A DNA stretch of 64,000 nt from an uncultured Acidobacteriaceae bacterium (GTDB taxonomy: Bacteria > Acidobacteriota > Terriglobia > Terriglobales > Acidobacteriaceae): NCBI GenBank assembly GCA_963837665.1, contig CAWIOA010000009.1, positions 285,661 to 349,660 on the forward strand. Direction: 5' to 3'. The notes under the pieces are model-generated. The model did not search any database. It was given only the letters and a program-made list of their open reading frames with translations, and was not told where the DNA came from. The position numbers and the translations under genes were made by a program. Positions 11,300 to 36,074 of this stretch are shown piece after piece (position 1 is the first letter of the stretch; the number at the start of each line of letters is the position of its first letter).

Positions 11300-11376
11300 G
11301 GCGGTGTAGCTCAGGTGGTTAGAGCGACGGTCTCATAATCCGTAGGTCGTAGGTTCGAGTCCTACCGCCGCCACCA
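11300..11376 (+). tRNA. tRNA with CAT anticodon (elongator Met, or Ile2 if lysidine-modified)
   Basis: Manual cloverleaf. Acceptor GGCGGTG/CGCCGCC (one G-U), D-arm GCTC/GAGC, anticodon loop CTCATAA, T-arm GTAGG-TTCGAGT-CCTAC, encoded CCA. The G1-C72 pair argues against an initiator. Confidence 0.88.
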
Positions 11377-20563: not shown

Positions 20564-21138
20564 GCCGGAGCCTCGCCCGTCATCGCGCGAAACAGCCATG
20601 CGCGAGCTGTCACCCATTCTCGTTTAACGGTCGCTGGCGAAATTCCCAAGACTTCCGACGTATCTTCAATCGTCAGCCCCGCGAAGTATCGCAATTCGAT
20701 GATGCGGCCTTGCTGCGCATCGAGCTTCGTCAGGTCTTCGAGGGCCTTGTCAAGAACGATGAGGTCGACGTCGGTGGGCTGTGCTCCTGCTAGCGACTCG
20801 TCCAGAGCCAAACGGGTCGCTCCACCACCGCGCTTGGCTGCTGCGCGGCCGCGCGCATGCTCAACGAGGATTTGCCGCATAAGATGAGCTGCAATTCCGA
20901 AAAAGTGGGCGCGATTCTGCCACTGCGGCGGACTTTGCCCGGCCAACCGAAGATAGGCTTCGTGGACCAAAGCGGTGCTTTGTAGCGTGTGGTCACTGCG
21001 TTCTTGCCGCAGGTAGTGGTGAGCAAGCTGGCGCAGTTCCTGATAGACGAGGGGCATTAAGGCGTCAAGAGCGCGCTCATCTCCCGAGCGCCAACGTACA
21101 AGGAGTTCGGTCACCTGATTGGAGGATTGGCTAGGCAA
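20560..21138 (-). CDS. ECF-type RNA polymerase sigma-70 factor (TIGR02999-like subfamily)
   Basis: VTELLVRWRSGDERALDALMPLVYQELRQLAHHYLRQER...LQSTALVHEAYLRL (region 2) and RIIELRYFAGLTIEDTSEVLGISPATVKREW (region 4). Its stop overlaps the kinase ATG (ATGA). Confidence 0.9.
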   Translation of the reverse strand: MPSQSSNQVTELLVRWRSGDERALDALMPLVYQELRQLAHHYLRQERSDHTLQSTALVHEAYLRLAGQSPPQWQNRAHFFGIAAHLMRQILVEHARGRAAAKRGGGATRLALDESLAGAQPTDVDLIVLDKALEDLTKLDAQQGRIIELRYFAGLTIEDTSEVLGISPATVKREWVTARAWLFRAMTGEAPA

Positions 21139-21562
21139 GGTGCGGTTCAGCCCTGGCAGCGCCGCGGGGAGTGTCGCTGTTGGAAGGGAAGCTTAGCCCG
21201 TCTGGGGGCATGTGTCAAGACGCTGAAAATACATGATTTAGTCTTCAACCGACTGCGCCGAGAGCGGGTGATCGATCTTTTCTGAGCCAGTTTTCTGGAT
21301 TTTCGCGCATGTGTAGATAGTTAGTAAGGTAGCTCGAAGGCTGGTCCGTCCGAGGGGGTTCGGAACGAGAGGAAGATCATGCTCGGACTTCTGGCCTTCG
21401 GACGTCAGCAGCAATTCCGATCGAATGCGGGTGGCCTCGGGGAAGGAACACCCGCCTTCGAGAGGTGACAGATCTCTGTCGCGGAAACGCTCAAAGAGCA
21501 GTAAATTCGCGGTCCGTGAAAGGCCGCGCCGAGAAGCCACTTTCAGCCCAGGAGCAGCAACC

Positions 21563-23182
21563 ATGACCAGGCTCAAAACAAATCGCAGTTTCAATATTGT
21601 GCGGACCATGATCGTTCTGGCAGTCATCGCTTGTGCCGCACTCGTTCACGCGCAAGTTTATACCCAACTGTATAACTTCGATTGCGTGAAGGTCGGGTGC
21701 AATCCGGATCAACCCGGGCTACTTGCCCAGGGCCAGGACGGCGGTCTTTATAGCACGATGCCGATCCAGATTTCCGGCGATGGTACAGTGATCGGCTGCT
21801 CGCCGGCTGGCCTGTGCGACACGATATTCCAATTCACAGACGTGAACTCCAGTCCACAATCAGGACTCAGTCTCGGTTTCGATGGCAACTTTTATGGAAC
21901 GGCCGAAACTGGCGGGGCTGGACGCACTGGCACCGTTTTCAAGGTTTCAGGTGGCGCCATGACAGTGCTTCATACCTTCACGGACGGCACCGATGGTGCA
22001 TATCCTTGGGCTCCTCCCGTTCAGGCCCCGGACGGAAACATTTATGGCGTCACATACAATGGTTCGAACCCAGGGAAAGCGTACAAGATTACGCCGTCCG
22101 GCGTTTTCTCCGTGCTCGCAACCCTGCCTTCCGGAACGCAGGCCCCCTTAATTGTCGGCATCGATGGGAAGCTCTACGGGACAACCCCGTATGGCGGCGA
22201 TTTCAATCGCGGCACCATGTTCCAAATGACCACGAAGGGCATAGTAAAGATCATTCACAGTTTCGGTGCCGATGGCCTTGTGCCTATCGGCCCGGTCATG
22301 CAGGCCGTTGACGGCAAGTTCTACGGCACGACGTCCGGGGGAGGGTCCTTCAGTCAGGGCATCGTCTATCAGGTGACCACGGGAGGCGCCTACAAAGTTC
22401 TGCACAACTTTCAGACCGCGACCGAGGGCACCGGTTCGACCACGGGCCTGGTGCAAGGAAGCGACAAGTTTCTCTATGGCGTGATCGCAGGCGGGGGCGT
22501 TAGCGGTCTCGGATCACTGTACAAGGTCAACACGACCGGGACTACTTTTGCAGTACTTCACAGCTTTGATAGGCTGACTGGGGGCACGCCGTTCTCTACT
22601 CCCACTCTTCACACGAACGGAACGATCTATGGCGTTACGCACACTGGCGGCTCACAGAATTCCACTTATGGCGCGCTTTACAGTTTCGATGCCGGGCTAA
22701 AGCCGTTTGCCTCCCTGGTCGTGATTTGGTCCGGCAAAGTGGGCACGCCGGTGGGCATCCTCGGCCAAGGCTTCTCGAGTGCAACGGGTGTGAAATTCGG
22801 ATCAGGGGCGGGTACCTTCACCGTCGTGAGCGATACCTACATGATCGCAACCGTGGCCGCCGGAGCAACCACCGGTAACGTGACTGTGCTTGAACCGAGC
22901 GGCAACCTGGTTACGCCACAGGTTTTCAAAGTCATTCCCCAGGCGCTGACATTCGCCCCGCCGAGCGGGCCGGTAGGAACGCCGGTTGTGATCACGGGCA
23001 TGAGTCTCACGCAAACAACCAGCGTGACCTTCGGCGGAGTCAAAGCCACCATCTTCACTGTGAACTCCGATACCCAGGTAACTGCGACGGTCCCGACTGG
23101 TGCCAAGACCGGCAAAGCAAAAGTAGTGGTCACGACGAAAGGCGGCAGTGCCACCGCTCCGGGAACTTTCACCGTGAACTGA
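21563..23182 (+). CDS. Secreted repeat protein: GloVer-type repeats plus two C-terminal IPT/TIG-like domains
   Basis: Start at ATG 21563 (MTRLKTNRSF..., signal peptide, AGGAGC RBS). Repeats DGNFYGT/DGKLYGTT..GG....G..F. C-terminal GT.V.I.G.GF...T.V.FGG..AT.FTV.SDT...ATVP.GA.TG. Confidence 0.8.
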   Translation: MTRLKTNRSFNIVRTMIVLAVIACAALVHAQVYTQLYNFDCVKVGCNPDQPGLLAQGQDGGLYSTMPIQISGDGTVIGCSPAGLCDTIFQFTDVNSSPQSGLSLGFDGNFYGTAETGGAGRTGTVFKVSGGAMTVLHTFTDGTDGAYPWAPPVQAPDGNIYGVTYNGSNPGKAYKITPSGVFSVLATLPSGTQAPLIVGIDGKLYGTTPYGGDFNRGTMFQMTTKGIVKIIHSFGADGLVPIGPVMQAVDGKFYGTTSGGGSFSQGIVYQVTTGGAYKVLHNFQTATEGTGSTTGLVQGSDKFLYGVIAGGGVSGLGSLYKVNTTGTTFAVLHSFDRLTGGTPFSTPTLHTNGTIYGVTHTGGSQNSTYGALYSFDAGLKPFASLVVIWSGKVGTPVGILGQGFSSATGVKFGSGAGTFTVVSDTYMIATVAAGATTGNVTVLEPSGNLVTPQVFKVIPQALTFAPPSGPVGTPVVITGMSLTQTTSVTFGGVKATIFTVNSDTQVTATVPTGAKTGKAKVVVTTKGGSATAPGTFTVN

Positions 23183-23669: not shown

Positions 23670-23698
23670 TTGACAAAGAGCAGGCGCAATTCTATAAG
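23670..23698 (+). promoter_or_regulatory. Sigma-70-type promoter of the GntR-family regulator gene
   Basis: TTGACA (23670-23675), a 17-nt spacer, then TATAAG (23693-23698). The operator palindrome begins 5 nt downstream. Confidence 0.6.
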
Positions 23699-23702
23699 AG
23701 CT

Positions 23703-23718
23703 AGTTGTCTAGACAACT
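23703..23718. promoter_or_regulatory. Perfect 16-bp palindrome AGTTGTCTAGACAACT, putative GntR/HutC operator
   Basis: Perfect inverted repeat with the GTnTAnAC core typical of HutC-subfamily operators. It overlaps the predicted transcription start of the regulator gene. A near-identical site lies at 33455-33470. Confidence 0.65.
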
Positions 23719-23728
23719 GGAGGATAGG

Positions 23729-24493
23729 TTGAACCTCCCCGTGCTCGACCGCCGCAGCGCCGTCCCGATTTACTATCAGATTCAGCAGCACCTGCTCGGG
23801 CAGATTCGTTCCGGCAAACTCAAGGCTGGAGCACCCGTCCCATCGGAGCAGGAGATCTCTTCTCGTTTGCGGATCAGTCGCATGACGGCGCGTCAGGCCC
23901 TGAAGTCCTTGTGCGATCTGGGAGTGACTTATAGCCAGAGAGGCAAGGGCACTTTTGTTTCCGGAATCAAACTGGAAAAGAACTTTCGGCAGGTGCTCTC
24001 CTTCAGCCAGGAAACGCAGGCGGGAGGCTCCCGGCCGGCGTCCAAGGTGCTTTCCTTTGAAGTCACCACCGCAGACGATGACGTCACGGAGGCACTCCGC
24101 CTTTCACCCGGGGAGCAAGTGATCAGCTTGCGCCGAGTGCGGATGGCCGGCTCTTCAGCCATGGGAATTGAGTGGAGCCGTATTCCCCAGAAGCTGTGTC
24201 CCGACCTGCTGCAGACGTTCAAACCTGCCGCATCTCTCTACCAGACTCTAATGGAGCACTACGGGATCGAGATTGCGGTAGCTGACGAGGTCGTAGAGGT
24301 GGGCCTGGCAGGGCCTGACGAATTGCGGTTGCTGAAGATCAACAAAGGGAACCCAATCTTTCTTTTTACGCGTACTTCGTACGTTCAGACCGGCCAGCCG
24401 GTCGAATATGTCAAGTCGATTTATCGAGGCGACCGTTACCGGCTGGTGAGCCGTTTGACACCACCGAAACGAAGCATCACAAGGGAAGACTGA
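23729..24493 (+). CDS. GntR-family transcriptional regulator, HutC subfamily (wHTH plus UTRA effector domain)
   Basis: PIYYQIQQHLLGQIRSGKLKAGAPVPSEQEISSRLRISRMTARQALKSLCDLGVTYSQRGKGTFV wHTH, and a UTRA-like C-terminal half. Start set at in-frame TTG 23729 after GGAGGA. The ORF track starts at 23705, inside the operator. Confidence 0.88.
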   Translation: MNLPVLDRRSAVPIYYQIQQHLLGQIRSGKLKAGAPVPSEQEISSRLRISRMTARQALKSLCDLGVTYSQRGKGTFVSGIKLEKNFRQVLSFSQETQAGGSRPASKVLSFEVTTADDDVTEALRLSPGEQVISLRRVRMAGSSAMGIEWSRIPQKLCPDLLQTFKPAASLYQTLMEHYGIEIAVADEVVEVGLAGPDELRLLKINKGNPIFLFTRTSYVQTGQPVEYVKSIYRGDRYRLVSRLTPPKRSITRED

Positions 24494-24535
24494 TACGCAA
24501 GAAAGCTGTTCGTACTAATCACCCGAGGTCATGAG

Positions 24536-25474
24536 ATGAGGAGAGAAGTTATGCCGCGAAATATATTCATGCTGATTGCCGTTGTGATAGCTGGCTTGGC
24601 GTTGAGCCTTTCGGCTTGGGGCCAGGCAACCACTTCGTTGCAGGGTACGGTCACAGATCCTACCGGCGCTGCGATTTCGGACGCCAAGGTGACCCTGACC
24701 AACGCCGCCACCAACATGGTCCGTGAGGCAACCACCTCGGGCAAAGGGGCGTATGAATTTATCTCGGTGCTGCCGGGGACGTACAAGTTGATGGTGGAGG
24801 CCAAGGGCTTCCGCACCTATGTGGAAACCGGAGTGCAGTTGTTCGTAAACCTGCCCGCAACCGCGAACGCCCGGTTGCAGGTCGGCGCCGTGGCGGAGAC
24901 GTTGGAGGTCACCGGCAAGGCCCCGTCGCTCAACACGACCGAACCCAGCCTCGGGCACACCATGGACTCGAACGAGATCGAGAACCTGCCGCTGCAAGCG
25001 GAGAACATGCCCCTGCTGCTCAGCCTGCAGCCCGGCGTCGTCTACAACGGCGAAGGCATCCTGGAAGACAGTTATGACACGCGCGCCGGATCGGTGAACG
25101 GCGAGCGCAGCGACCAGAACAATATCACGCTGGACGGCGTGAGCATCAACGACGAATTCAACGGCTACGCCTTCACGGGGGTTTTGCCATCCACGCCATA
25201 TTCGGTGGAAGAATTTCGGGTAACCACTTCCAACTATGACGCGACCCAGGGCCGCTCCGCCGGCGCTCAGATCGCCATGGTCACGAAGGGCGGTACTAAC
25301 GCGTTTCACGGTTCGCTGTACGAGTTCAACCGGAACACAGTCGGAGAGGCCAACGACTACTTCCTGAAACAGTCCCAATTGGCTGCTGGCCTGTCGAACG
25401 TGCCGGAACACCTGGTGAGGAATATCTACGGCGGGACCATCGGCGGGCCGATTCTGAAGGACCGCCTGTTCTTT
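24536..25474 (+). CDS. TonB-dependent receptor (carboxypeptidase-regulatory-like N-domain), exon 1, interrupted by group II intron
   Basis: Signal peptide, then GTVTDPTGAAISDAKVTLTN...GAYEFISVLPGTYKL (CarboxypepD_reg) and plug-domain motifs. The reading frame leaves conserved sequence exactly at 25474 (..GGPILKDRLFF), where the intron GTGTG begins. Confidence 0.85.
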
Positions 25475-27353
25475 GTGTGCCGAACATGTTCGACAGCTAG
25501 GGGGTGAAAGTCCCCTGCCCAACCTGGTGGAGGTGAAGGGCTAGAGAAGCGCAAGGGCGTCGTCGCGAGGCGGGGTCTGAAAGAAGCGTGGATCAAAGGC
25601 GCGAGCCGATGGACAAGAACCGGATAACGAGGCCTACGGTGTGGGGCGAGTTGGCAAAGGACAGCGAAGCCCGTGTCCACCAAGCACACTGGTGGTAAAT
25701 CCGGCGGTTGCGCGTCGAAGGCGGTCGAACTTACTTCGGGAGACCCGCCGCATGTCACGGAATCGTGACTGAGGATGGAGCGATTCATCCTGACCGTGGG
25801 GCGGGAGTCAGCAGCGGGCATAGTAGGCCGCGAGGTCGAAGGCCCAAACAGCCAGGAGCGGCGAGTAGGACGCAGGACTCGATGAACGACAAGCGGCAGA
25901 AAAACCAGCTACAGATGGCGCTGGCCTTTACCGGGGAGGGGAGGAGTGAAGCTCCAAGGGCTCCGCGGGAAGGGACCGAATCGTTCACGGCGAAGTGCGA
26001 AACCGAAAGTCCGGCTGGAGAAGAGCAACTGATGGAAGAGGTCTGCGGGCGGGAAAACTGTCAGCGGGCTTTACGACGAGTGAAGGCCAACAAGGGCAGT
26101 CCGGGAATCGACGACATGAAAGTGTCGGAGTTGCCGGGCTACCTGAAGCAGCACTGGCCAGCGATTCGGGAACAACTGTTGAGCGGGACTTATCAACCGC
26201 AACCGGTGCGGCGAGTGGAAATAGCCAAACCGGACGGAGGGATGCGCAAGCTGGGCATTCCGACGGTGTTGGATCGGTTTATTCAGCAGGCGGTGATGCA
26301 GGTTCTGCAAGTCAGATGGGACCCGACGTTTTCCGAACATAGTCACGGGTTTCGTCCGCAACGTTCGGCGCATCAGGCGGTGGCCAAGGCGCAGCAGTAT
26401 ATCGCCGAGGGCAACCGCTGGGTGGTGGATCTCGATCTGGAAAAGTTCTTTGATCGAGTGAATCACGACAAACTGATGGCGGCGATCGCGCGGCGGGTGA
26501 GCGACAAGAGGATGCTCAAGCTGATCCGAGCTTTTCTGGAGTCGGGCGTGATGGAGAACGGGTTGGTGAGTTCGGTGGAGGAAGGAACTCCGCAAGGAGG
26601 ACCTCTGTCACCGCTGCTGTCGAATCTCGTGCTCGACGAACTCGACCGGGAGTTGGAGCGACGTAAGCACCGTTTCGTGCGCTACGCGGATGATTGCAAT
26701 ATCTACGTGGCCAGCGAGCGGGCGGGGAAGCGAGTCATGCAAAGCGTGACCGGTTTCCTGCGGCGGCGACTCAAGCTCAAGGTGAATGAGGCGAAGAGCG
26801 CGGTGGCGCGACCGCAGGAGCGCAAGTTCCTGGGCTTCAGCTTTACCGGCAGGAGAGAACCGAAACGGCGCATCGCGCCTAAGGCTCTCGACCGCTGTAA
26901 GCGAAAAGTACGGGAACTCACGCGACGAACACGGGGCATCAGTCTGGAACAGATGATGAAGCAACTCGCCACCTATTTACGTGGCTGGAAGAGTTACTTC
27001 GGCTTCAGCCAGACGCCCTCGGTGCTGCGTAGGCTGGAGGAATGGATGCGACGCAGGTTGCGATCCGTGATCTGGAAGCAATGGAAGCGCAGCAAGGTGC
27101 GGTATGTGAAGCTGCGCCAGCGGAACATCGGACATGCCCTCGCGGCACAAACCGCCGGCAGTCCCTATGGACCATGGCGTCTGGCCAACAGCCCGGCCCT
27201 GTCGTCTGCGTTTCCGATTGCTTACTTCGACGTGCTCGGTCTTCCTCGCTTGTTGGACGTGCTCTAGCTTAACCGAACTGAACCGCCGTATGCGGACCCG
27301 CATGTACGGTGGTGTGGCAGGGGAGGAGAGGTGACTCTCCCCCCTATGCCGAT
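25475..27353 (+). mobile_element. Group II intron, copy 1 (1879 nt, IIC-like)
   Basis: Limits were defined by where the two copies start and stop being identical. 5' GTGTG, 3' ...GAT. Domain V is at 27283-27312 (ccgccgtatgcg-gacc-cgcatgtacggtgg with a 2-nt bulge), followed by a domain VI hairpin. Encodes an RT/maturase in domain IV. Confidence 0.9.
25882..27267 (+). CDS. Group II intron reverse transcriptase/maturase (no endonuclease domain evident)
   Basis: Start at ATG 25882 (MNDKRQKN). RT motifs GSPGIDDM, RRVEIAKPDGGMRKLGIPTVLDRFIQQA, GTPQGGPLSPLLSN, VRYADDCNIY (YADD). Maturase X region LRGWKSYFGF. No HNH/Zn motif at the C-terminus. Confidence 0.95.
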   Translation: MNDKRQKNQLQMALAFTGEGRSEAPRAPREGTESFTAKCETESPAGEEQLMEEVCGRENCQRALRRVKANKGSPGIDDMKVSELPGYLKQHWPAIREQLLSGTYQPQPVRRVEIAKPDGGMRKLGIPTVLDRFIQQAVMQVLQVRWDPTFSEHSHGFRPQRSAHQAVAKAQQYIAEGNRWVVDLDLEKFFDRVNHDKLMAAIARRVSDKRMLKLIRAFLESGVMENGLVSSVEEGTPQGGPLSPLLSNLVLDELDRELERRKHRFVRYADDCNIYVASERAGKRVMQSVTGFLRRRLKLKVNEAKSAVARPQERKFLGFSFTGRREPKRRIAPKALDRCKRKVRELTRRTRGISLEQMMKQLATYLRGWKSYFGFSQTPSVLRRLEEWMRRRLRSVIWKQWKRSKVRYVKLRQRNIGHALAAQTAGSPYGPWRLANSPALSSAFPIAYFDVLGLPRLLDVL

Positions 27354-30281
27354 TTCTTTAATTACGAAGGCCAACGGCAATCGAAACAAGAGAGCGCGCT
27401 ACGGAATATCCCCACCCCGTCGCTGGCCGATGGAATCCTTCAGTATGAATGCGACGATGCGGGCGAATGTCCCGGCGGCAGCGCCACGGGCATAAGCGGC
27501 AACAGCTACCCAGTCCAGCCCGGCTACTACGCGCTGACTAACACAGACCTCATGCAGATGGATCCGGCTCACATTGGGCCGAACCAGGCGGCGCTTGGTT
27601 ACTTTGGCATATTTCCAAAGGCTAACGACTTCACGGTAGGCAATGGCGTGAACTTCGCCGGGTATCGCTTTGCTGCCCCAACGAAGTTTTCCAATAACTG
27701 GTTCATTGGCCGACTGGACTACGAACTGACTCGAAACGGCAACCATACGCTTTTCCTGCGCGGTGCAGCCCGCAATGATCGCTTTTCCGACACGCCGTTT
27801 CTTCCTGGCACAGCGCCAGAGGATGGGTCGGTGGACGTCAGCAAGGGGTTTGTCTTGGGCTACACGGGTGTTTTCGGACCGCATTGGGTCAACAACGTGC
27901 GCTATGGCCTCACCCACCAGAGCATCGCAACCGCGGGCGATTCCGGCCAACCGTGGATTCTCATGCGGGGGCTAGACGAGCCGAACCTCTATGGGGGTGC
28001 GTTTACCGCGCCGGTGCACAATCTGGTGGACACCGCCTCCTGGAACAAGGGAACGCACAACTTCCAGTTTGGCGCGAACCTGCTGTTCATCCGCCGAAAC
28101 AGCTTCAGTACCTACAACTCTTTCAGCGACGGAATTACGAACTCCGACTACCTCTTCTCCGGCGGCTTTGCCAACAAGAACTCGCCTCTCGATCCCACCT
28201 ACGGCTGCGCTTCTTCCGGCCCCTGCTTTCCGGCAGTTTCCGGCGATTTCAACAACGGCTATGACTTTCCCATGGCGGCGCTGATGGGCATCGTCAGCGA
28301 AGTGGATGCCCGCTACAACTACAAGGTCGCTAACCTGACTACCGCCACCCCGATCGGGCAGGGGCTTCCGATCACGCGCCACTGGGCAACCGACACCTAC
28401 AACCTGTTCTTCCAGGATACATGGCATGCGCGGCCCAACTTAACGGTGACCTACGGCTTGAATTATCAACTGATGATGCCCATCACCGAAACCGCAGGGC
28501 AGCAAGTGACGCCGTCGGTAAATATGGGCGCATGGTTCAACCAGCGCGCCCTTAACGCCAGCAAAGGCATCCCCTCGAACCAGGATGCGCCGATCGCGTT
28601 CGCACCTTCCGGTTCGGTTTATGGCAGGAGCGGTTTGTATTCTGCACAAACCAAGAATTTCGCTCCGCGCGTAGGAGTCTCCTGGACGCCACACTCCAGT
28701 TGGGGATGGCTAAAGGAGATGCTGGGCGAGGACAAGACGGTGGTTCGCGCCGGGGCCGGAATGTACTACGACAACTTCGGTCCGGCGCTGGCGATGAACT
28801 ACGACGCGAACGGTACGTTTGGCCTTTCGAGCGTGCTCTCGAATCCGGCCGCCACGTTGACCCTCAACGACGCTCCTCGCATGACCAGCATGAATGTGAT
28901 CCCAACCACTGACAATTCCGGTAACCCCATCATGCTGCCCCCCCCGCCCTCTACATTCCCGGTTACCTTTCCGCAGGGCGCCGAGGCGATTGCGTCAGGG
29001 ATTGACCAATCTATAAAGACTCCCTACTCCTACGCTCTGGATTTGTCGATCCAGCGGCAGTTACCGGGACGGATGACTCTGGACGTAGCATACGTCGGGC
29101 ACTTCGGTCATAGATTGCTCGCTTTGGACGATGTCGCCGCCCCGCTCAACCTGAAAGACCCGAAATCGGGAATCGACTACTTCACCGCAGCAAAGCAAAT
29201 GTCGAAGCTGTGGCGCGCCGGCACTCCCGAGAGCAGCATCACGCCTGCGGTGGTCGGGCCGACGGCACAATACTGGCAGAACATACTGTCGACACCGTCC
29301 AATGGGCAATACTCGCTTTGCTCGACCGGAGGGACGACACCCAACCTGTTGATCGCTACCTACGACGCTTTCAGCCCTGGCTGCGGCAGCCTCTACAACG
29401 AGACCACCGCACCCTGGATCATGGACTTGTACGGTATCCCGAGCACACCTGTAACGGGGCCGAACAGCTTCTACAACAGCCAGTACTCGTCACTATGGGA
29501 CTGGCGCTCGATCGGCTACTCGAACTACAACGCCCTGCAGGTTGGTCTGCACCGGCAGATGTCCCATGGAGTCCTGTTCGGGCTTAACTACACTTACAGC
29601 AAGTCTAACGACATCGCGTCGCAGGCAGAACGCGGCATCCACTATCTTACGGACAGCATCATTAATCCATGGTCCCCCAATCAAATGTACGGTCCCAGCG
29701 ATTTCGATTTGCGGCACCAGATCAACGGCTTCTGGGTGGTGGAGTTGCCCTTTGGCCGAGGTAAACGAATCGGTGGGGACGTCAGCAAACTGGCCGACGC
29801 CCTGATCGGCGGCTGGCAACTTGGCGGGACCGCGCGCGTCACCTCGGGATACACAACCAGCGTGTTCATGGGCTACGTCTGGCCGACCAACTGGGATGAA
29901 ATGGGATGGGCGGATTTGACCGGCAAACCCATCAAGACGGGGACGACGATGGTCAATGGAACGCCCAATATATTCAAGAATCCCACCCAGGCGAGCGCGG
30001 GTTTCGATTATGCCTATCCGGGCGAAAGCGGCTCCCGTAATCCTATTCGCGGCGATGGTTACTTAGGCGTGGACATGAACCTGGCGAAGACCTGGAAGAT
30101 GCCCTTTGCGGAAAATCAGAAACTGCAATTGCGCTGGAGCGTTTTCAACGTGACCAATACCGCTCGATTCGACGCCTACTCGATGCAGGACGAGGTGGAT
30201 TCCGGGAGCACGTTCGGGAACTACACCCAAACGCTGACTCACCCACGTACGATGGAGATCGCTTTGACTTATCAATTCTGA
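27354..30281 (+). CDS. TonB-dependent receptor, exon 2
   Basis: In frame with exon 1 after removal of 25475-27353. Begins FFNYEGQRQ and ends with beta-barrel terminal ...IALTYQF. The joined product is 1288 aa. Confidence 0.85.
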   Translation, partial: FFNYEGQRQSKQESALRNIPTPSLADGILQYECDDAGECPGGSATGISGNSYPVQPGYYALTNTDLMQMDPAHIGPNQAALGYFGIFPKANDFTVGNGVNFAGYRFAAPTKFSNNWFIGRLDYELTRNGNHTLFLRGAARNDRFSDTPFLPGTAPEDGSVDVSKGFVLGYTGVFGPHWVNNVRYGLTHQSIATAGDSGQPWILMRGLDEPNLYGGAFTAPVHNLVDTASWNKGTHNFQFGANLLFIRRNSFSTYNSFSDGITNSDYLFSGGFANKNSPLDPTYGCASSGPCFPAVSGDFNNGYDFPMAALMGIVSEVDARYNYKVANLTTATPIGQGLPITRHWATDTYNLFFQDTWHARPNLTVTYGLNYQLMMPITETAGQQVTPSVNMGAWFNQRALNASKGIPSNQDAPIAFAPSGSVYGRSGLYSAQTKNFAPRVGVSWTPHSSWGWLKEMLGEDKTVVRAGAGMYYDNFGPALAMNYDANGTFGLSSVLSNPAATLTLNDAPRMTSMNVIPTTDNSGNPIMLPPPPSTFPVTFPQGAEAIASGIDQSIKTPYSYALDLSIQRQLPGRMTLDVAYVGHFGHRLLALDDVAAPLNLKDPKSGIDYFTAAKQMSKLWRAGTPESSITPAVVGPTAQYWQNILSTPSNGQYSLCSTGGTTPNLLIATYDAFSPGCGSLYNETTAPWIMDLYGIPSTPVTGPNSFYNSQYSSLWDWRSIGYSNYNALQVGLHRQMSHGVLFGLNYTYSKSNDIASQAERGIHYLTDSIINPWSPNQMYGPSDFDLRHQINGFWVVELPFGRGKRIGGDVSKLADALIGGWQLGGTARVTSGYTTSVFMGYVWPTNWDEMGWADLTGKPIKTGTTMVNGTPNIFKNPTQASAGFDYAYPGESGSRNPIRGDGYLGVDMNLAKTWKMPFAENQKLQLRWSVFNVTNTARFDAYSMQDEVDSGSTFGNYTQTLTHPRTMEIALTYQF

Positions 30282-30412
30282 TACTGCAGATCGACTCGAA
30301 CTTGCAGGACGGCCCGGCTAAGCAGGCAGGCCGCCCTGGGTTCGGGCGATGTCAACTTACACCCTCCCCCACTTGAAGGCTCATTCCCACGTACGTTGAA
30401 AGGAGTGAGTGA

Positions 30413-31345
30413 GTGAAGACCGGAAAACACAAGGCGGCGCAGGACGTTCGCCGTCTGCGCACCGAGCAAGCGCACGACGGGGCCACGAATCTTGATCAGA
30501 AGTCAGCGATCGAGATCGCTCGCCTGATCAACGCTGAAGACGCGACGGTAGCTGCCGCGGTACGAAGCGCGTTGCCGCAGATCGCGCGCGCCATTGACCT
30601 GGTCGCTGCCGCCCTTCGCCAGGGCGGCCGCCTGATTTACGTTGGCGCCGGCACCAGCGGCCGCATCGGCGCCCTGGATGCTTCTGAATGCGCGCCCACC
30701 TTTGATCTTTCACCACGCACCGTTCAGGCCATCATCGCGGGAGGTCCGAAAGCCCTGGCGACGTCCGCTGAATCTCGTGAAGATGACACCAAACTGGGAC
30801 GCGCCGAGATGGCCCGACGGAAGCCCGGCAAGAGGGATGTCGTTATCGGCATCGCCTCCAGCGGACGCACTCCTTTCACCGTAGCCGCCATCGAATACGC
30901 GCGCCGCCGCGGCGCGAAGACCATCGCCCTCACCTGCAACCCTGACTCGCCGCTCGAGCGCGCGGCTGGCTTTGCCATCGTCACCGACGTTGGTCCTGAG
31001 ATTCTGGCTGGATCGTCACGCATGAAAGCCGGCACGGCACACAAGATGGTGCTGAACATAATCTCTACCGGCGCGATGACGCGGCTGGGCTATGTCTATG
31101 GCAATCTGATGGTCAAGGTATCGCCGAGGAATGAGAAACTGGTGCAGCGCGTGGTTGGAATCTTGGAGCGCGCCACGGGAGCCGACCATGAAACTGCCCG
31201 CCGTACGTTGGAGGCTTCGGGCAATCGCACACCAGTCGCCGTCGTAATGCTGGCTGCCGGGGTCTCCCGCGCCAAGGCTGCTGCCGCCCTGAAGAAATCC
31301 CGTGGTCACGTGCGCCAAGCTATCGCGATCGCAAGCCCGAAGTGA
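30413..31345 (+). CDS. murQ: N-acetylmuramic acid 6-phosphate etherase
   Basis: SIS-domain protein. LRTEQ......LD.KS..EI..LIN.ED..V, GRLIYVGAGTSGRIG.LDASECAPTF, GIASSGRTP, SRMKAGTA.K..LN motifs. GTG start with an AAAGGAG RBS. Confidence 0.9.
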   Translation: MKTGKHKAAQDVRRLRTEQAHDGATNLDQKSAIEIARLINAEDATVAAAVRSALPQIARAIDLVAAALRQGGRLIYVGAGTSGRIGALDASECAPTFDLSPRTVQAIIAGGPKALATSAESREDDTKLGRAEMARRKPGKRDVVIGIASSGRTPFTVAAIEYARRRGAKTIALTCNPDSPLERAAGFAIVTDVGPEILAGSSRMKAGTAHKMVLNIISTGAMTRLGYVYGNLMVKVSPRNEKLVQRVVGILERATGADHETARRTLEASGNRTPVAVVMLAAGVSRAKAAAALKKSRGHVRQAIAIASPK

Positions 31346-31382
31346 GGGTGGCGCCGGTGCGACACGCGATTGCGAGACGCTG

Positions 31383-32504
31383 TTAGAGCGGTTGTACTCC
31401 CAGTCCCGGTCCCTCGGGCAGAATAAGCTTGCCCTTTTGCACGGTAACGCCGCGGTAGGGATCGTTCGCGATCAAAATGTTTCCATCCAGATCCGCGTAG
31501 TCCACGAGCGGCGAAAGATGCGCTGCCGCCGTGACACTGACCGAACTGGCAATCATGCAGCCGATCATGGTTTTCATCCCCAGCGACTTGGCCACATAAA
31601 TCATGCGCAGAGCTTCCTGGATGCCTCCACACTTGTCGAGTTTGACGTTGATTCCGTCATAGGCATCGACGAGTTTGGGGATGGCGCGCGCATTCACGGC
31701 TGCTTCATCGGCGATAATCGGCAAATGCACGCGGCTTCTCACCCATCGTGTTTCTTCGAGCATATCCGCGGGCATCGGTTGCTCGATGAACTCCACGCCT
31801 TGCGATTCGAGCCAGTTGATCTTGCGGACGGCCTCTTCTTTGTCTTTCCACCCTTCGTTGGCATCTACGCGCAGTGGCTTTTTGGTTACGCTGCGTACTG
31901 CCTCGATGGTGGGTTCATCGGTGGTTAGACCTACTTTGATCTTGAGGACCGGATACGCCTCCGCTTCGAGGACTTTCTGCCGCGTGATTTCGGGCGTATC
32001 GATTCCGATGGAGAATGTGGTAACCGGTGCGTCGGCCGCGTCGAGACCGAGAAAGCGGTAGAGGGGGACGTTCAGTTTCTTGCCGACCCAATCCATGAGG
32101 GCGATATCGAGAGCGGCTTTGGCGGCGAATTGCCCTTCGACTCGCGCGCGGACCTGGGCCATGAGCTTTTCGAACTGCCATGGGTTCGCGCTCGCCAGGA
32201 AAGGAAGAATCGACTCAATCGCTTTTCGACCGTCCTCTGCGTTTTCGTGGTAACGCACGATGGGCGCGCCTTCACCGAATCCAGTCACGCCGCCACAGTT
32301 AAGGCGGACGTGGATGGTGTCACGGTAGGCGCTGGACGACATCGTCGTCGTCCAGGTGTGGCGAAGGTTGAGGCGCACGACCCTGGCCTCCCACTTGCAG
32401 TCCGCCGGAGACTCTTCCGCGAAGGCTGGCAACGATGCGAAATTCGCGGCCATGCAACCCACGCCAAGAGTTCCGGTAGCCTGGAGCCACTTTCGCCGGT
32501 TCAT
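31383..32504 (-). CDS. Enolase-superfamily dipeptide epimerase (L-Ala-D/L-Glu epimerase-like) with twin-arginine signal peptide
   Basis: Start at ATG 32504 (MNRRKWLQATGTLGVGCMAANFASLPAFA). MR/MLE-type motifs KIKVG, RVDANEGW, EQP, DE...... and KLDKCGG. The ATG overlaps the stop of the upstream NlpC/P60 gene (ATGA). Confidence 0.78.
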   Translation of the reverse strand: MNRRKWLQATGTLGVGCMAANFASLPAFAEESPADCKWEARVVRLNLRHTWTTTMSSSAYRDTIHVRLNCGGVTGFGEGAPIVRYHENAEDGRKAIESILPFLASANPWQFEKLMAQVRARVEGQFAAKAALDIALMDWVGKKLNVPLYRFLGLDAADAPVTTFSIGIDTPEITRQKVLEAEAYPVLKIKVGLTTDEPTIEAVRSVTKKPLRVDANEGWKDKEEAVRKINWLESQGVEFIEQPMPADMLEETRWVRSRVHLPIIADEAAVNARAIPKLVDAYDGINVKLDKCGGIQEALRMIYVAKSLGMKTMIGCMIASSVSVTAAAHLSPLVDYADLDGNILIANDPYRGVTVQKGKLILPEGPGLGVQPL

Positions 32505-33397
32505 TTGACCCTCTTGCAGGCGACCAGCAGGCGCGTCCACGGATCGTCATCCAGGCGGCTGATCTGCGTCACCGGATGGCTGTTGGTGGTGGTGTGGATG
32601 AATTGTCCTTCTCCGATGTAGAGGCCGGTGTGCGTGATCTTGTCGGCGGCCTGTCCAAAAAAGAGCAGGTCGCCGGGCCGGAGATCCTTACGATCGACCG
32701 CCACAACTCCGTCCCATGCCGCCTGAAGATCCGCGTCACGAGGCATGTTGAAGCCACGGCTGCGCACCAGCATCTGGGTGAACCCCGAGCAGTCGTACCC
32801 GTAACTGGAGCGTCCGCCCCACAGATAAGGCAGGCCGAGGAACCGTTTAGCCAGGTCAATCGACTGGGCTATGGTCAGGGGTTGCGGATCGCGATTGACA
32901 TCTCCGTTTTGGATCCACGCGGTGCGCTGGTCGGGCAAACGCACCTGCAGCCATCCAGCGTCGTCTCCTTTCCCCTCGGCCACGACCTCCAGGCGCGTTT
33001 CAAAAGGGACGGTGAGGACAGGCTTGCGCGAGGTAACGTCGGTTACGCCATACAGGTTGGCAAACAAGGCCTCGACCTGCACCACCGATCCTGACTTGGC
33101 ATAGGCTCCGGATTCGCCCAGCTTGCGGAGAGTATCACCGGCCATCCAGCCCGAGTACTGGTCAGCGGTACGGACTCTTGCCCAATTGTCCCGGACTTCG
33201 AGCGTAACCACATTGCTGCCGATAATGGCTTGTGAGACTACATCAGAGTTTTCGGTTGCAGCGGAATACATGTTGGCAACCGGAACCACCACGACACGGT
33301 CCGGGACGGCGGTCTGCCCAGAGGAGGCGTTCCTGAGAAATAAGGCTAATGTGATTGCGAAGAATACCTGTATGCAACGATTGTTTCGGTAGCGCAT
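32501..33397 (-). CDS. NlpC/P60 peptidase with N-terminal SH3b-like domains (YkfC-like gamma-D-glutamyl-L-diamino-acid endopeptidase)
   Basis: GLPYLWGGRSSYGYDCSGFTQMLV (catalytic Cys), GDLLFF, ITHTGLYIG.GQFIHT (His). Preceded by two SH3b-like segments and a signal peptide. The start is 33397 or 33436. Confidence 0.85.
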   Translation of the reverse strand: MRYRNNRCIQVFFAITLALFLRNASSGQTAVPDRVVVVPVANMYSAATENSDVVSQAIIGSNVVTLEVRDNWARVRTADQYSGWMAGDTLRKLGESGAYAKSGSVVQVEALFANLYGVTDVTSRKPVLTVPFETRLEVVAEGKGDDAGWLQVRLPDQRTAWIQNGDVNRDPQPLTIAQSIDLAKRFLGLPYLWGGRSSYGYDCSGFTQMLVRSRGFNMPRDADLQAAWDGVVAVDRKDLRPGDLLFFGQAADKITHTGLYIGEGQFIHTTTNSHPVTQISRLDDDPWTRLLVACKRVK

Positions 33398-33454
33398 GAT
33401 GAATACCCCGAAGAGCCTTCTTGACAAACAGAGCATCTTAGCACTGGACAGACT

Positions 33455-33470
33455 AGTTGTCTATACAACT
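33455..33470. promoter_or_regulatory. Second putative GntR/HutC operator AGTTGTCTATACAACT
   Basis: Differs from the 23703-23718 palindrome at one position. The flanking ct...g bases are also shared. It lies just upstream of the minus-strand NlpC/P60-epimerase operon. Confidence 0.6.
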
Positions 33471-33657
33471 GATGAATGAGTTTAACCTCTCCCGGGTAGA
33501 GAGCACGGGCAGGGCGCAGCCAGCGACATGCAGGGCCAGTGCAGAAGTGTGGACCACAAGAATCATGATCCAGAGGGTAACTTGAGCACTAACACTTAGG
33601 TAACGTCGTCATTCAGACCGGACGCAACTAATCTTGCGGCTGAGGGTTTCTATCGAC

Positions 33658-34038
33658 ATGAACAATAAATTCACCAACTCGCTGTTAATCCTGGCAGTCG
33701 GGGCCCTGATGATCGCCGGTTCCGCCGCTGCTCAAACCTCCACCAACACTTCGGGCGCGGGTCCTGGCGTGGTCGATCCCGGCCATCCGCGGGTCAATGA
33801 AGTCAATCGCCGCGAAGGCAACCAGCAGCAGCGCATTGGCAACGGCATTAAGAGCGGGAAATTGAGCTCGCAGCAGACGACGAACCTGGAAAAGCGCGAG
33901 ACCAGCGTGCAGAACCGTGAACAGAAAGACATGGCGGCGCACAACGGACATCTCACCAAGTCCGAGCAGAAGGGAATCAATCGCCAGCAGAACCGGATCA
34001 GCAAGAGTATCTACAAAGACAAGCACCCCAAGCAGTAA
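33658..34038 (+). CDS. Hypothetical small secreted protein, Gln/Asn/Lys-rich
   Basis: 126 aa from ATG 33658. Signal peptide MNNKFTNSLLILAVGALMIAGSAAAQ, followed by a good terminator. No family recognised. Confidence 0.5.
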   Translation: MNNKFTNSLLILAVGALMIAGSAAAQTSTNTSGAGPGVVDPGHPRVNEVNRREGNQQQRIGNGIKSGKLSSQQTTNLEKRETSVQNREQKDMAAHNGHLTKSEQKGINRQQNRISKSIYKDKHPKQ

Positions 34039-34073: not shown

Positions 34074-34101
34074 GCCGCAGCGTTGCTGCGGCGTTTTCTT
34101 T
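34074..34101 (+). terminator. Rho-independent terminator (also the insertion site of intron copy 2)
   Basis: gccgcagc-gtt-gctgcggc (8-bp stem) followed by gttttcttt. The intron begins at the next base. Confidence 0.75.
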
Positions 34102-35980: not shown

Positions 35981-36074
35981 TGTCCGGGCGCTTGGGGTGC
36001 GAATAAGACAAAGGAAAACGGCCGGGAGAGACTCCCAGCCGTTTCTTGGGGAACTTCTACTACAGAGCTATTTC

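What the first reader, a model, noticed from the sequence alone, without database searches (positions are those of the whole stretch)
23729..33436. Candidate outer-membrane-to-cytoplasm peptidoglycan-fragment salvage locus
The locus groups five genes: a HutC regulator; a TonB-dependent receptor; MurQ (MurNAc-6-P etherase); a YkfC-like NlpC/P60 peptidase (the family cleaves L-Ala-gamma-D-Glu from the diamino acid); and a YkfB/YcjG-like L-Ala-D/L-Glu epimerase. The ykfB-ykfC pairing is known from Bacillus murein-peptide catabolism, and MurQ from MurNAc recycling. Combining them with a TonB receptor suggests active scavenging of environmental cell-wall fragments, which fits a soil oligotroph. No MurNAc kinase/PTS or inner-membrane permease is in the locus, so the pathway is incomplete as seen here.
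Basis: inference. Interest (0 to 1): 0.6.

Follow-up and report, generated by a model that had tools for sequence, protein, structure and literature searches.

The report
Cell-wall salvage regulon, intron-split receptor
In a soil Acidobacteriaceae genome, two facing operons share a repressor binding site found nowhere else in the genome and together look like a system for importing and dismantling bacterial cell-wall fragments, built from known enzyme families, with its outer-membrane receptor gene currently split by a mobile group II intron.

Summary
All five genes are present. Two facts were missing from this finding. The TonB-dependent receptor gene (24536-30281) is interrupted by a 1,879-nt group II intron (25475-27353), and the peptidase and epimerase lie on the opposite strand and carry export signals.

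- A 16-bp palindrome lies at the regulator promoter (23703-23718) and, with one change, at the peptidase-epimerase promoter (33455-33470). These are the only two sites in 5.18 Mb with two or fewer mismatches.
- The regulator is NagR/DasR-like and keeps the sugar-phosphate pocket.
- MurQ passes its equivalog cut-off.
- The peptidase keeps the YkfC Tyr/Asp pair for free stem peptides.
- The epimerase is closest to the Bacteroides BT1313 structure and has a Tat signal in all ten orthologues checked.
- The "missing" steps are elsewhere in the genome: a MurT-like symporter next to a MurK-like kinase, AnmK beside a NagZ-like gene, NamZ/AmiE-like genes, AmpG, NagA and a NagB-family gene.
- Other Acidobacteriota lineages repeat the association. 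One has an eight-gene receptor-symporter-MurQ-NamZ-NagZ-peptidase-epimerase-regulator cluster.

The closest relatives lack the arrangement, so it is a recent, facultative assembly. No substrate has been tested. I rate it a new variant of known kinds, of moderate interest.

The parts
23670..23698 (+). Promoter-like site, TTGACA-17 nt-TATAAG, upstream of the regulator gene
   Evidence: Read directly from the sequence. This is a consensus match only. The scan tool did not list it because its rule requires T at position 6 of the second hexamer.
23703..23718 (.). Operator 1: perfect 16-bp palindrome AGTTGTCTAGACAACT, just downstream of the -10 element
   Evidence: It is one of only two sites with two or fewer mismatches in the 5.18-Mb genome, where 0.03 are expected at one or fewer mismatches. 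A perfect copy sits at the same place before the orthologous regulator in L002.
23729..24493 (+). GntR/HutC-family repressor, NagR/DasR-like (TTG start preceded by GGAGGA)
   Evidence: Pfam GntR plus UTRA. The best solved relatives are B. subtilis NagR/YvoA and S. coelicolor DasR, E about 5e-46. The phosphate-binding positions of NagR (Thr90, Arg133, Arg135, Ser165-Ile166-Tyr167; PMC4333415) align to Ser, Arg, Arg and Ser-Leu-Tyr.
24536..25474 (+). TonB-dependent receptor, exon 1: signal peptide, CarboxypepD_reg domain, plug, first 58 barrel-profile positions
   Evidence: Pfam. N-terminal signal-like sequence. It ends exactly on a codon boundary.
25475..27353 (+). Group II intron (GTGTG...GAT) in sense orientation. 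The IEP ORF has RT and maturase X domains, no endonuclease domain hit, and its first ATG is at 25882.
   Evidence: Rfam RF02001 (121 bits), RF01998 and RF00029. TIGR04416 430 bits. Four 100%-identical copies in the genome. The other three copies sit right after terminator hairpins.
27354..30281 (+). TonB-dependent receptor, exon 2: barrel-profile positions 59-837, C-terminal ...TYQF
   Evidence: Pfam PF25183. The spliced product (1,288 aa) is collinear with uninterrupted orthologues across ...KDRLFF|FFNYEG.... C-terminal Phe.
30413..31345 (+). [quoted passage not shown]
   Evidence: TIGR00274 349 bits against an equivalog cut-off of 302. Solved MurQ structures 4LZJ, 4S12 and 1NRI at E about 1e-77. 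Single tblastn hit in the genome.
31383..32504 (-). Dipeptide (L-Ala-D/L-Glu-type) epimerase of the enolase superfamily, with a twin-arginine signal peptide (MNRRKWLQ...AFA)
   Evidence: Pfam MR_MLE_N/C. Best solved relative is 3IJI/3IJL/3IJQ, E 3e-82, with the KxK, D/E/D, Lys and DxD motifs aligned. Xu et al. 2015 name BT1313 as the characterised L-Ala-D-Glu to L-Ala-L-Glu epimerase; that 3IJI is BT1313 is my recollection. The MNRR motif is conserved in 10 of 10 orthologues.
32501..33397 (-). YkfC-like gamma-D-Glu-diamino-acid peptidase (SH3b1-SH3b2-NlpC/P60) with a Sec-type signal; its stop overlaps the epimerase start (ATGA)
   Evidence: Pfam PF00877, PF18348 and PF23795. Best solved relatives are 3H41 (BcYkfC per the paper), 3NPF and 3PVQ (dipeptidyl-peptidase VI; my match to BoYkfC and BtYkfC). 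Tyr94, Asp234 and Cys216 (311-aa ORF numbering) align to the specificity and catalytic residues described in PMC4600125.
33435..33470 (-). Operator 2 (AGTTGTCTATACAACT, 33455-33470) overlapping the -35 of a promoter-like site (TAGACA-17-TAAGAT with TG) for the peptidase-epimerase operon
   Evidence: promoter scan; genome-wide uniqueness.

Best explanation
This is a small regulon of two convergent operons under one NagR/DasR-type repressor. It serves the uptake and breakdown of peptidoglycan fragments.

Proposed mechanism (steps 1-6 are inferred from family membership and gene context):
1. The TonB-dependent receptor brings muropeptides or MurNAc-containing fragments across the outer membrane.
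2. In the periplasm, enzymes encoded elsewhere in the genome (AmiE-like amidases, NamZ, NagZ-like) release MurNAc, GlcNAc and free stem peptides.
3. [quoted passage not shown]
4. The Tat-exported epimerase turns L-Ala-D-Glu into L-Ala-L-Glu, which ordinary peptide uptake and peptidases can handle.
5. MurNAc enters through a MurT-like sodium:solute symporter and is phosphorylated by the adjacent MurK-like kinase. AnhMurNAc is handled by AnmK. MurQ converts MurNAc-6-P to GlcNAc-6-P plus D-lactate, and NagA and a NagB-family enzyme continue.
6. The repressor binds the shared palindrome at both promoters and is probably released by a phosphorylated amino sugar (GlcNAc-6-P, GlcN-6-P or MurNAc-6-P).

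Shown here: the gene identities, the motifs, the export signals, the shared unique operator, the location of the other pathway genes, and the recurrent synteny.

In this strain the receptor mRNA must first lose a sense-oriented, recently inserted group II (IIC-like) intron. Precise splicing would restore the frame and a conserved motif.
For: Operator
- The palindrome occurs only at the two promoters in 5.18 Mb.
- It is kept before the orthologous regulator in L002.

Regulator
- Its closest solved relatives are NagR and DasR, and the phosphate-binding residues are kept.

Enzymes
- MurQ scores above its equivalog cut-off.
- The peptidase has the YkfC architecture and keeps the Tyr/Asp pair that restricts activity to free stem peptides.
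- The epimerase matches the 3IJI structure at E 3e-82 with all catalytic and DxD motifs. Xu et al. describe BT1313 as the characterised YkfB-like epimerase.
- The Tat motif is conserved in 10/10 epimerase orthologues, and the peptidase orthologues carry signal-like hydrophobic N-termini.

Other pathway genes in the same genome
- MurK-like kinase: best solved match is 8ZO3, a MurNAc/GlcNAc kinase, E 2e-28. It lies divergent from an SSF symporter that is 65% identical to the symporter inside another genus's MurQ cluster.
- GH3 (NagZ-like)-AnmK-SBP5 cluster.
- NamZ/AmiE-like genes.
- AmpG, NagA and a NagB-family gene.

Recurrent synteny
- G034 carries receptor-SSF-MurQ-bla/NamZ-GH3-peptidase-epimerase-GntR, all on one strand.
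- G057 carries the receptor's orthologue (about 60% identity) divergent from the regulator orthologue, with bla/NamZ and SSF 3-7 kb away.
- L002 has regulator-receptor-MurQ. L015 has NamZ-bla-MurQ followed by a receptor.
- G486 has peptidase-epimerase-receptor. Family f32 genomes have the pair within 9 kb of MurQ, NamZ or SSF.

Background control
- 0 of 20 loci holding paralogous receptors (36-47% identity) had any of these genes within about 8 kb.
Against: - No substrate, transport or expression data exist. No RNA run holds the locus.
- The receptors next to MurQ in the window, L002 and G034 are not orthologous (25-35% identity), so receptor specificity cannot be transferred between them.
- One of the two receptor orthologues (G056) has no cell-wall genes nearby.
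- The arrangement is absent from the nearest relative (L001). The epimerase and the receptor orthologue were not found in the same-genus genome G050.
- Only 2 of 45 related MurQ loci have a receptor within 10 kb, and about 22 of 29 epimerase loci show no sugar-branch gene within 9 kb.
- The operator was not found elsewhere in the genome, so the unlinked transport, kinase and NamZ genes are not visibly co-regulated.
- The epimerase misses the NCBIfam equivalog cut-offs. Its best NCBIfam score is to N-acetyl-D-Glu racemase DgcA (218 against 400).
- The intron may lower or abolish receptor, and possibly MurQ, expression.
Confidence: 0.65

Rival explanations
1. The regulon serves amino-sugar or own-wall recycling, and the receptor imports something else (for example chito-oligosaccharides or GlcNAc, as in Caulobacter and Xanthomonas), or is an unrelated neighbour. 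MurQ and the peptide enzymes would then only process turnover products released into the cell's own periplasm.
For: - The regulator is NagR/DasR-like, a family best known from GlcNAc regulons.
- TonB-dependent GlcNAc receptors with GntR-type regulators are documented (PMC13046382).
- The genome has about 48 receptors of this type.
- The receptors linked to MurQ in different genomes are not orthologous.
- 37 of 45 related MurQ loci carry the NamZ/AmiE-like gene cluster next to MurQ, and only 2 of 45 have a receptor within 10 kb.
Against: - No nagA, nagB, chitinase or GlcNAc transporter lies in the regulon. What is co-regulated with the receptor is MurQ plus stem-peptide enzymes.
- Receptor adjacency to MurQ, NamZ or the peptidase-epimerase pair recurs in at least five contexts, against 0/20 for paralogous receptors.
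- Own-wall recycling needs no outer-membrane importer.
Confidence: 0.17
2. The locus is a recent mosaic in decay. The receptor is effectively knocked out by the intron (poor splicing of IIC introns, polarity on murQ), and the gene neighbourhood reflects rearrangement in an unstable region rather than a working pathway.
For: - The region is rich in mobile DNA: two intron copies and IS110 transposases.
- MurQ has left its usual locus, and the nearest relative has a different arrangement.
- None of 22 homologous receptors carries the intron.
- The coding-region target has only a weak hairpin (z = -1.3), unlike the other three sites, which suggests an off-target hit.
Against: - All reading frames are intact. 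Exon sequences are undamaged and collinear with orthologues.
- The intron is in sense orientation with an intact IEP, and all four copies are identical, which indicates recent movement.
- The two promoters keep a shared operator that chance cannot explain. This argues for selection on co-regulation.
Confidence: 0.1
3. The peptidase-epimerase pair acts on other D-Glu-containing substrates (for example N-acyl-D-Glu as for DgcA, or poly-gamma-glutamate fragments) rather than on peptidoglycan stem peptides.
For: - The best NCBIfam hit of the epimerase is the DgcA racemase model (218 bits), higher than the L-Ala-D/L-Glu epimerase models (134 and 128 bits). All are below their cut-offs.
- The 20s-loop residues do not align cleanly with the 3IJI sequence.
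Against: - The solved-structure match to 3IJI is much stronger (280 bits), and the DxD motif that binds a dipeptide amino group is present.
- The partner is always a YkfC-type peptidase: 9/9 in the family and at least 13/20 across the phylum. It keeps the Tyr/Asp pair specific for a free N-terminal L-Ala.
- The same gene pair in B. thetaiotaomicron (BT1314/BT1313) has been characterised biochemically (PMC4600125).
Confidence: 0.06

Closest known systems
Bacteroides thetaiotaomicron BT1314 (YkfC) / BT1313 (YkfB-like epimerase) pair; Bacillus ykfB-ykfC
   Same: - An adjacent peptidase-epimerase pair.
- The peptidase has the SH3b1-SH3b2-NlpC/P60 architecture and the Tyr/Asp pair for free stem peptides.
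- The epimerase's best solved match is 3IJI (E 3e-82), with identical catalytic and DxD motifs.
- Xu et al. 2015 (PMC4600125) proposed processing before import for Bacteroides, as proposed here.
   Different: - Here the epimerase carries a conserved twin-arginine signal, which gives explicit sequence evidence for export.
- The pair has its own operator-controlled promoter.
- It is co-regulated with a TonB-dependent receptor and MurQ.
- As far as I know, the E. coli (YcjG) and Bacillus (YkfB) epimerases are cytoplasmic.
Tannerella forsythia murTKQ operon and its peptidoglycan-recycling cluster (MurT transporter, MurK kinase, MurQ etherase, NamZ, AmpG)
   Same: The same parts list is present in the genome: a candidate MurT-like symporter, a BadF/BadG-family kinase, MurQ, NamZ and AmpG. 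G034 has symporter-MurQ-NamZ in one cluster.
   Different: - In the window genome the parts are scattered over four contigs.
- The kinase matches the T. forsythia MurNAc kinases only weakly (E 6e-9) and matches 8ZO3 better.
- An outer-membrane receptor and a NagR/DasR-type regulator are attached, and AnmK is present.
- No outer-membrane importer is described for T. forsythia in the papers read.
B. subtilis NagR (YvoA) / Streptomyces DasR regulons with dre operators
   Same: - GntR/HutC repressor with a UTRA domain and conserved phosphate-binding residues.
- A 16-bp palindromic operator overlapping the promoters.
- From memory, the operator differs from the dre consensus at only one symmetric pair of positions.
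   Different: The targets are MurQ, a TonB-dependent receptor and stem-peptide enzymes rather than nagA/nagB/nagP. The regulon seems limited to two promoters. The effector is unknown.
Caulobacter crescentus NagA-type TonB-dependent GlcNAc receptor clusters with GntR-type regulators
   Same: [quoted passage not shown]
   Different: - Caulobacter lacks MurQ, and its receptor takes GlcNAc.
- Here the receptor belongs to the Acidobacteria-type CarboxypepD_reg/OMP_b-brl_4 class and is tied to MurNAc and stem-peptide enzymes.
Bacterial group IIC introns (e.g. B.h.I1 of Bacillus halodurans)
   Same: - Compact intron with an RT plus X IEP and no endonuclease domain hit.
- Three of four copies are inserted a few bases after a terminator hairpin plus T-run (PMC1702495).
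   Different: This copy sits inside a conserved coding sequence, in sense orientation, at a site with only a weak hairpin. A gene product therefore depends on its splicing.

Membership tests
MurQ (MurNAc-6-P etherase, TIGR00274) | Score above the curated equivalog cut-off, with SIS-domain architecture | tested here: met
   349 bits against a cut-off of 302. PF22645, PF13580 and PF01380 hits. Solved MurQ structures at E about 1e-77.
Dipeptide epimerases of the enolase superfamily (MLE subgroup; YkfB/YcjG/BT1313) | KxK and second catalytic Lys, Asp/Glu/Asp metal ligands, and the DxD motif that binds the dipeptide amino group | tested here: met
   In the alignment to 3IJI: LKIKVG, VDAN, IEQP, ADE, KLDKCGG and ADLDGN are all aligned and conserved.
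Dipeptide epimerases of the enolase superfamily (MLE subgroup; YkfB/YcjG/BT1313) | Curated equivalog score for L-Ala-D/L-Glu epimerase | tested here: not met
   NF011708 134 against 343. NF041118 128 against 500. The DgcA model 218 against 400. These models are narrow (E. coli and Thermotoga types); I do not know of one for the BT1313 type.
Dipeptide epimerases of the enolase superfamily (MLE subgroup; YkfB/YcjG/BT1313) | Substrate preference for L-Ala-D/L-Glu | not testable with these tools
   Inferred from the closest characterised relative and from the invariant YkfC partner. The 20s-loop Arg does not align cleanly.
YkfC-type recycling NlpC/P60 peptidases | SH3b1-SH3b2-NlpC/P60 architecture with a catalytic Cys | tested here: met
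   PF18348/PF08239, PF23795 and PF00877 hits. Cys216 lies in DCSGF. Best solved matches are 3H41, 3NPF and 3PVQ.
YkfC-type recycling NlpC/P60 peptidases | [quoted passage not shown] 2015) | tested here: met
   Tyr94 (DQYSGW) aligns with the Tyr of DDYTGW in 3NPF. Asp234 (PRDA) aligns with the Asp of PRDA. These correspond to BoYkfC Tyr80 and Asp221 if the chain index is offset by 20, which is my own count.
NagR/DasR-type GntR/HutC repressors | Winged-helix GntR domain plus UTRA domain, with residues that hold the sugar phosphate | tested here: met
   Pfam. NagR Thr90, Arg133, Arg135 and Ser165-Ile166-Tyr167 align to Ser, Arg, Arg and Ser-Leu-Tyr.
NagR/DasR-type GntR/HutC repressors | Palindromic operator at the regulated promoters | tested here: met
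   Two copies of a 16-bp palindrome at the two promoters, unique in the genome. Binding itself was not tested.
TonB-dependent receptors (Acidobacteria-type CarboxypepD_reg / OMP_b-brl_4) | Signal peptide, plug and full 22-strand barrel profile, C-terminal aromatic residue, in one open frame | tested here: not met
   All modules are present and collinear with orthologues only after removal of the intron. As genomic DNA the frame is broken at 25474/25475.
Group IIC introns | Group II ribozyme domains, an RT plus X IEP without an endonuclease domain, and insertion after terminator stem-loops | tested here: met
   Rfam hits. TIGR04416, with Pfam RVT_1 plus GIIM only. 3 of 4 copies lie 5-8 nt after strong hairpins, z -3.5 to -7.4. 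IIC-specific ribozyme features (short D5, no EBS2) were not examined.
T. forsythia-type MurT/MurK/MurQ pathway | A MurNAc-specific transporter and a MurNAc kinase acting with MurQ | tested here: inconclusive
   The SSF symporter and BadF/BadG kinase are adjacent on C2. The symporter's orthologue lies inside the G034 MurQ cluster. The kinase's best solved match is a MurNAc/GlcNAc kinase (8ZO3), but the T. forsythia kinases score only E 6e-9. That MurT belongs to the SSF family is my recollection, not checked here.

The most novel reading that the evidence does not exclude
The receptor is a dedicated TonB-dependent importer of muropeptides or MurNAc. I found no such outer-membrane transporter described in the literature I could search. 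It would feed a largely periplasmic stem-peptide catabolic branch with a Tat-exported enolase-superfamily epimerase, letting soil Acidobacteria live partly on bacterial necromass. In this strain its expression would be gated by splicing of a group IIC intron.
Probability: 0.35. Interest if true: 0.65.

Novelty: new variant of a known kind. Interest (0 to 1): 0.45.

Why it matters
Peptidoglycan is a large pool of soil organic nitrogen and carbon, yet how Gram-negative bacteria bring its fragments across the outer membrane is poorly known. Known recycling systems start in the cell's own periplasm.

This locus gives a concrete, testable candidate: a receptor co-regulated with MurQ and with exported stem-peptide enzymes through a unique operator. 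The phylum also offers a fuller eight-gene version in another genus. It suggests that Acidobacteria use the Bacteroides-style periplasmic route for the peptide part, with a Tat-exported epimerase.

It is also a natural case of a bacterial structural gene whose expression should depend on splicing of a IIC intron. All enzyme families involved are known, so the advance is in how the system is assembled, not in a new kind of enzyme or mechanism.

Tried and rejected
- RNA evidence: no RNA holder was listed for the locus.
- Metagenome contigs: four metagenome runs laid on the locus gave only short contigs, mostly on the intron and its relatives. None bridged the exon junction or an empty site, so nothing can be said about an intron-free allele or about habitat.
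- Operator outside the locus: nothing was found in the genome at two or fewer mismatches. The only loose match near a relevant gene (NamZ/bla intergenic, 4 mismatches) is within chance. The operator was also not found in G034 or G057.
- Wider receptor subfamily: 0 of 20 paralogous-receptor loci had cell-wall genes nearby. I use this only as a background control.
- Lukk et al. 2012 (PMC3306705) is not held. BT1313 activity is therefore cited through Xu et al. 2015.
- Literature searches for a described TonB-dependent peptidoglycan or MurNAc importer, or for a Tat-exported enolase-superfamily epimerase, found nothing relevant in the held library. This is not proof of absence.
- I rejected reading the locus as one five-gene operon, because of strand orientation.
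- I rejected reading 23705 as the regulator's start codon, because it lies inside the operator. TTG at 23729 with a GGAGGA ribosome-binding site fits better.
- The unpublished genome G025 appears only in the tally and hit list.

Full report
**What is there.** The window is from an Acidobacteriaceae (Terriglobales) genome of 5.18 Mb in 10 contigs. Between 23.7 and 33.5 kb I find the following:
- a GntR/HutC regulator (23729-24493, +);
- a TonB-dependent receptor in two pieces (24536-25474 and 27354-30281, +);
- MurQ (30413-31345, +);
- on the minus strand and convergent with MurQ, an SH3b-SH3b-NlpC/P60 peptidase (32501-33397);
- an enolase-superfamily epimerase (31383-32504), whose start overlaps the peptidase stop in ATGA.

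The five genes of the finding are therefore real. They form two transcription units, not one, and the receptor is not a single open frame.

**The receptor is split by a group II intron.** A block of 1,886 nt occurs twice in the window at 100% identity (25469-27354 and 34096-35981).
- Rfam finds group II domains D1-D4 and D5/D6 in both copies.
- The internal ORF is a group II RT/maturase (TIGR04416, 430 bits) with RT and X domains only.
- The intron proper runs from GTGTG at 25475 to GAT at 27353.
- Exon 1 ends on a codon boundary. Exon 2 begins in the frame of the downstream ORF. The Pfam barrel profile is cut between positions 58 and 59 exactly there.
- The joined product (1,288 aa, ending ...TYQF) is collinear, without a gap, with uninterrupted orthologues in two other genera (64% and 61% identity) across ...KDRLFF|FFNYEG....
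- None of 22 homologous receptors examined carries an insertion at this site.
- The genome has four identical intron copies. Three lie 5-8 nt after strong terminator-type hairpins followed by T-runs (z -3.5 to -7.4). The receptor site has the same TTCTTT but only a weak stem (z -1.3).

This is the behaviour described for group IIC introns (PMC1702495). The copy in the receptor looks like a recent off-target insertion into a coding sequence that resembles a terminator. Whether the receptor is made depends on splicing, which I could not test.

**Identity of the enzymes.**
- *MurQ.* It passes the curated equivalog cut-off (349 against 302 bits), matches solved MurQ structures at E about 1e-77, and is the only copy in the genome.
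- *Peptidase.* Its best solved relatives are 3H41, 3NPF and 3PVQ. Xu et al. [quoted passage not shown] A Tyr from SH3b1 and an Asp from the catalytic domain enforce this. Both residues (Tyr94, Asp234) and the catalytic Cys216 are kept here.
- *Epimerase.* Its best solved relative by far is 3IJI/3IJL/3IJQ (E 3e-82). The KxK motif, the metal ligands, the second Lys and the DxD motif all align. Xu et al. describe BT1313 as the characterised enzyme that converts L-Ala-D-Glu to L-Ala-L-Glu, encoded next to BT1314/YkfC. That 3IJI is BT1313 is my recollection. The protein misses the narrow NCBIfam equivalog cut-offs, and its best NCBIfam score is to the DgcA racemase model. Specificity therefore remains an inference.

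**Export signals.** The peptidase starts with a Sec-type signal. The epimerase starts MNRRKWLQ..., followed by a hydrophobic stretch and AFA, which is a twin-arginine signal. The MNRR-x-[WLY]-[LM]-[KQ] motif is present in all nine family orthologues as well, and the peptidase orthologues have signal-like hydrophobic N-termini. The peptide branch is therefore predicted to run in the periplasm, as Xu et al. proposed for Bacteroides, and not in the cytoplasm as in E. coli.

**Co-regulation.**
- A perfect palindrome AGTTGTCTAGACAACT lies just after a TTGACA-17-TATAAG promoter in front of the regulator gene (23703-23718).
- A copy with one change (33455-33470) overlaps the -35 of a promoter-like site for the peptidase-epimerase operon.
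- In the whole genome these are the only two sites with two or fewer mismatches. About 0.03 are expected at one or fewer.
- The lead for this test came from an earlier first-stage note. I verified it and added the genome-wide count.
- A perfect copy also precedes the 85%-identical regulator in a related MAG (L002).
- The regulator's closest solved relatives are NagR/YvoA and DasR (E about 5e-46), which bind palindromic dre sites and respond to GlcN-6-P and GlcNAc-6-P (PMC4333415).
- All six NagR phosphate-coordinating positions are kept or conservatively replaced.

The two operons are therefore very probably one regulon that responds to a phosphorylated amino sugar.

| Function | Location | Evidence |
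|---|---|---|
| AnmK, preceded by a GH3 NagZ-like gene and followed by a family-5 peptide-binding protein | C2:276066-277235 | |
| BadF/BadG kinase; best solved match 8ZO3, a MurNAc/GlcNAc kinase, E 2e-28 | C2:973266-974126 (-) | |
| SSF symporter, divergent from the kinase; followed by an amino-acid permease and a TonB gene | C2:974283-975737 (+) | |
| AmpG | C4 | |
| NagA | C4 | |
| NagB-family gene (Pfam Glucosamine_iso) | C2 | |
| Second GH3 gene | C8 | |
| AmiE-like beta-lactamase-fold gene and a beta-lactamase/NamZ fusion | C7:604701-608327 | |

The pathway is complete at genome level, but only the receptor, MurQ and the peptide enzymes carry the operator.

**Comparative context.**
- *Typical MurQ locus.* In 37 of 45 related MurQ loci the beta-lactamase/NamZ gene cluster lies beside MurQ, typically as bla-NamZ (-), bla (+), MurQ (+), then a MurA-like gene. 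In this genome that locus exists but MurQ is gone from it. MurQ has therefore moved behind the regulator and receptor.
- *Related MAGs.* L002 has regulator-receptor-MurQ with a non-orthologous receptor. L015 has a receptor 1.4 kb after MurQ. The closest relative L001 (MurQ 96%) has chemotaxis genes upstream and no peptidase-epimerase pair.
- *Epimerase distribution.* It is patchy: 9 of 120 family genomes and 30 of 400 phylum genomes. It almost always travels with the peptidase (9/9 in the family, at least 13/20 in the phylum sample), and the flanks are otherwise unrelated.
- *Recurrent association with the sugar branch or a receptor.*
  - G034 has receptor-SSF-MurQ-bla/NamZ-GH3-peptidase-epimerase-GntR on one strand.
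  - G486 has peptidase-epimerase-receptor.
  - Three genomes of one genus in family f32 have MurQ, and in two of them a NamZ or beta-lactamase-like gene, within 9 kb. A fourth f32 genome has the symporter and a receptor.
  - G057 carries the orthologue of the window's receptor next to the regulator orthologue, with bla/NamZ and the symporter 3-7 kb away.
- *Control.* 0 of 20 loci with paralogous receptors showed any of these genes. The genome holds about 48 receptors of this type.

The association is facultative and was assembled repeatedly. That is what a functional link predicts and chance does not.

**Mechanism, verdict and limits.** The best reading (confidence about 0.65) is the salvage regulon described under Best explanation.
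- *Shown:* identities, motifs, signals, the operator, genome content and synteny.
- *Inferred:* every substrate, the receptor's cargo, the effector, and splicing.
- *Main rival (0.17):* the receptor carries another cargo and the regulon serves amino-sugar or own-wall recycling.
- *Second rival (0.10):* a decaying mosaic with a dead receptor.
- *Third rival (0.06):* another D-Glu substrate for the peptide enzymes.

All families are known, and the closest systems are listed under Closest known systems. What is new is the assembly:
- a receptor coupled with MurQ and exported stem-peptide enzymes under one operator;
- a Tat-exported dipeptide epimerase;
- an intron inside the receptor gene.

I rate it a new variant of a known kind, with interest 0.45. 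Other first-stage notes of this scan had already flagged the intron, the Tat signal and the palindromes on this same window.

Noticed in passing
window 34102-35980 (identical block 34096-35981): A second, 100%-identical intron copy sits directly after a terminator hairpin downstream of a small exported-looking ORF (33634-34038). The two direct repeats bracket 8.6 kb: receptor exon 2, murQ, the epimerase, the peptidase and the small ORF. Recombination between them would delete most of the regulon.
   Followed up: partly
own genome C7:604701-609790 (outside the window; L075): The usual MurQ locus (bla/NamZ fusion, AmiE-like bla, MurA-like gene) is intact, but murQ is missing from the 155-nt gap where relatives have it. 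MurQ has been relocated to the window locus.
   Followed up: partly
own genome C7:73209-74601: An Mpl-like (UDP-MurNAc:tripeptide ligase) match is split into two adjacent pieces in different frames (profile positions 1-213 and 214-447). This is either a frameshifted gene or an assembly error.
   Followed up: no
own genome C4:231934-242500 (L109): The closest paralogue of the receptor (49% identity) is followed by an IS copy, a beta-lactamase-fold gene, AmpG, and a second IS copy of the same family in the same orientation. The arrangement around bla-AmpG looks like a composite transposon.
   Followed up: partly
window 36075-39902 (-): A second, intact CarboxypepD_reg/OMP_b-brl_4 TonB-dependent receptor (1,275 aa). 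Its terminator faces intron copy 2. It has a 43%-identical paralogue on C4.
   Followed up: no
window 14869-17156 and 17717-21138: Two IS110-family transposase genes lie here, followed by an ECF sigma factor gene (20560-21138) that overlaps the start of a 966-aa Ser/Thr kinase gene. The region just upstream of the regulon is rich in mobile DNA.
   Followed up: no
window 21425-23182 (+): A 585-aa protein with GloVer tandem repeats and a TIG domain has a 91%-identical paralogue on C2, which points to a recent duplication.
   Followed up: no
window 11795-14407 (-): An 870-aa ORF contains internal DNA repeats of about 300-660 nt at 73-82% identity (self-BLAST). It lies next to a tRNA at 11300-11373.
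   Followed up: no
own genome C2:975800-978500 (L071 9808-12497): An amino-acid permease and a TonB-C-domain protein directly follow the MurT-like symporter on the same strand. The TonB protein is a possible energising partner for the receptor.
   Followed up: no
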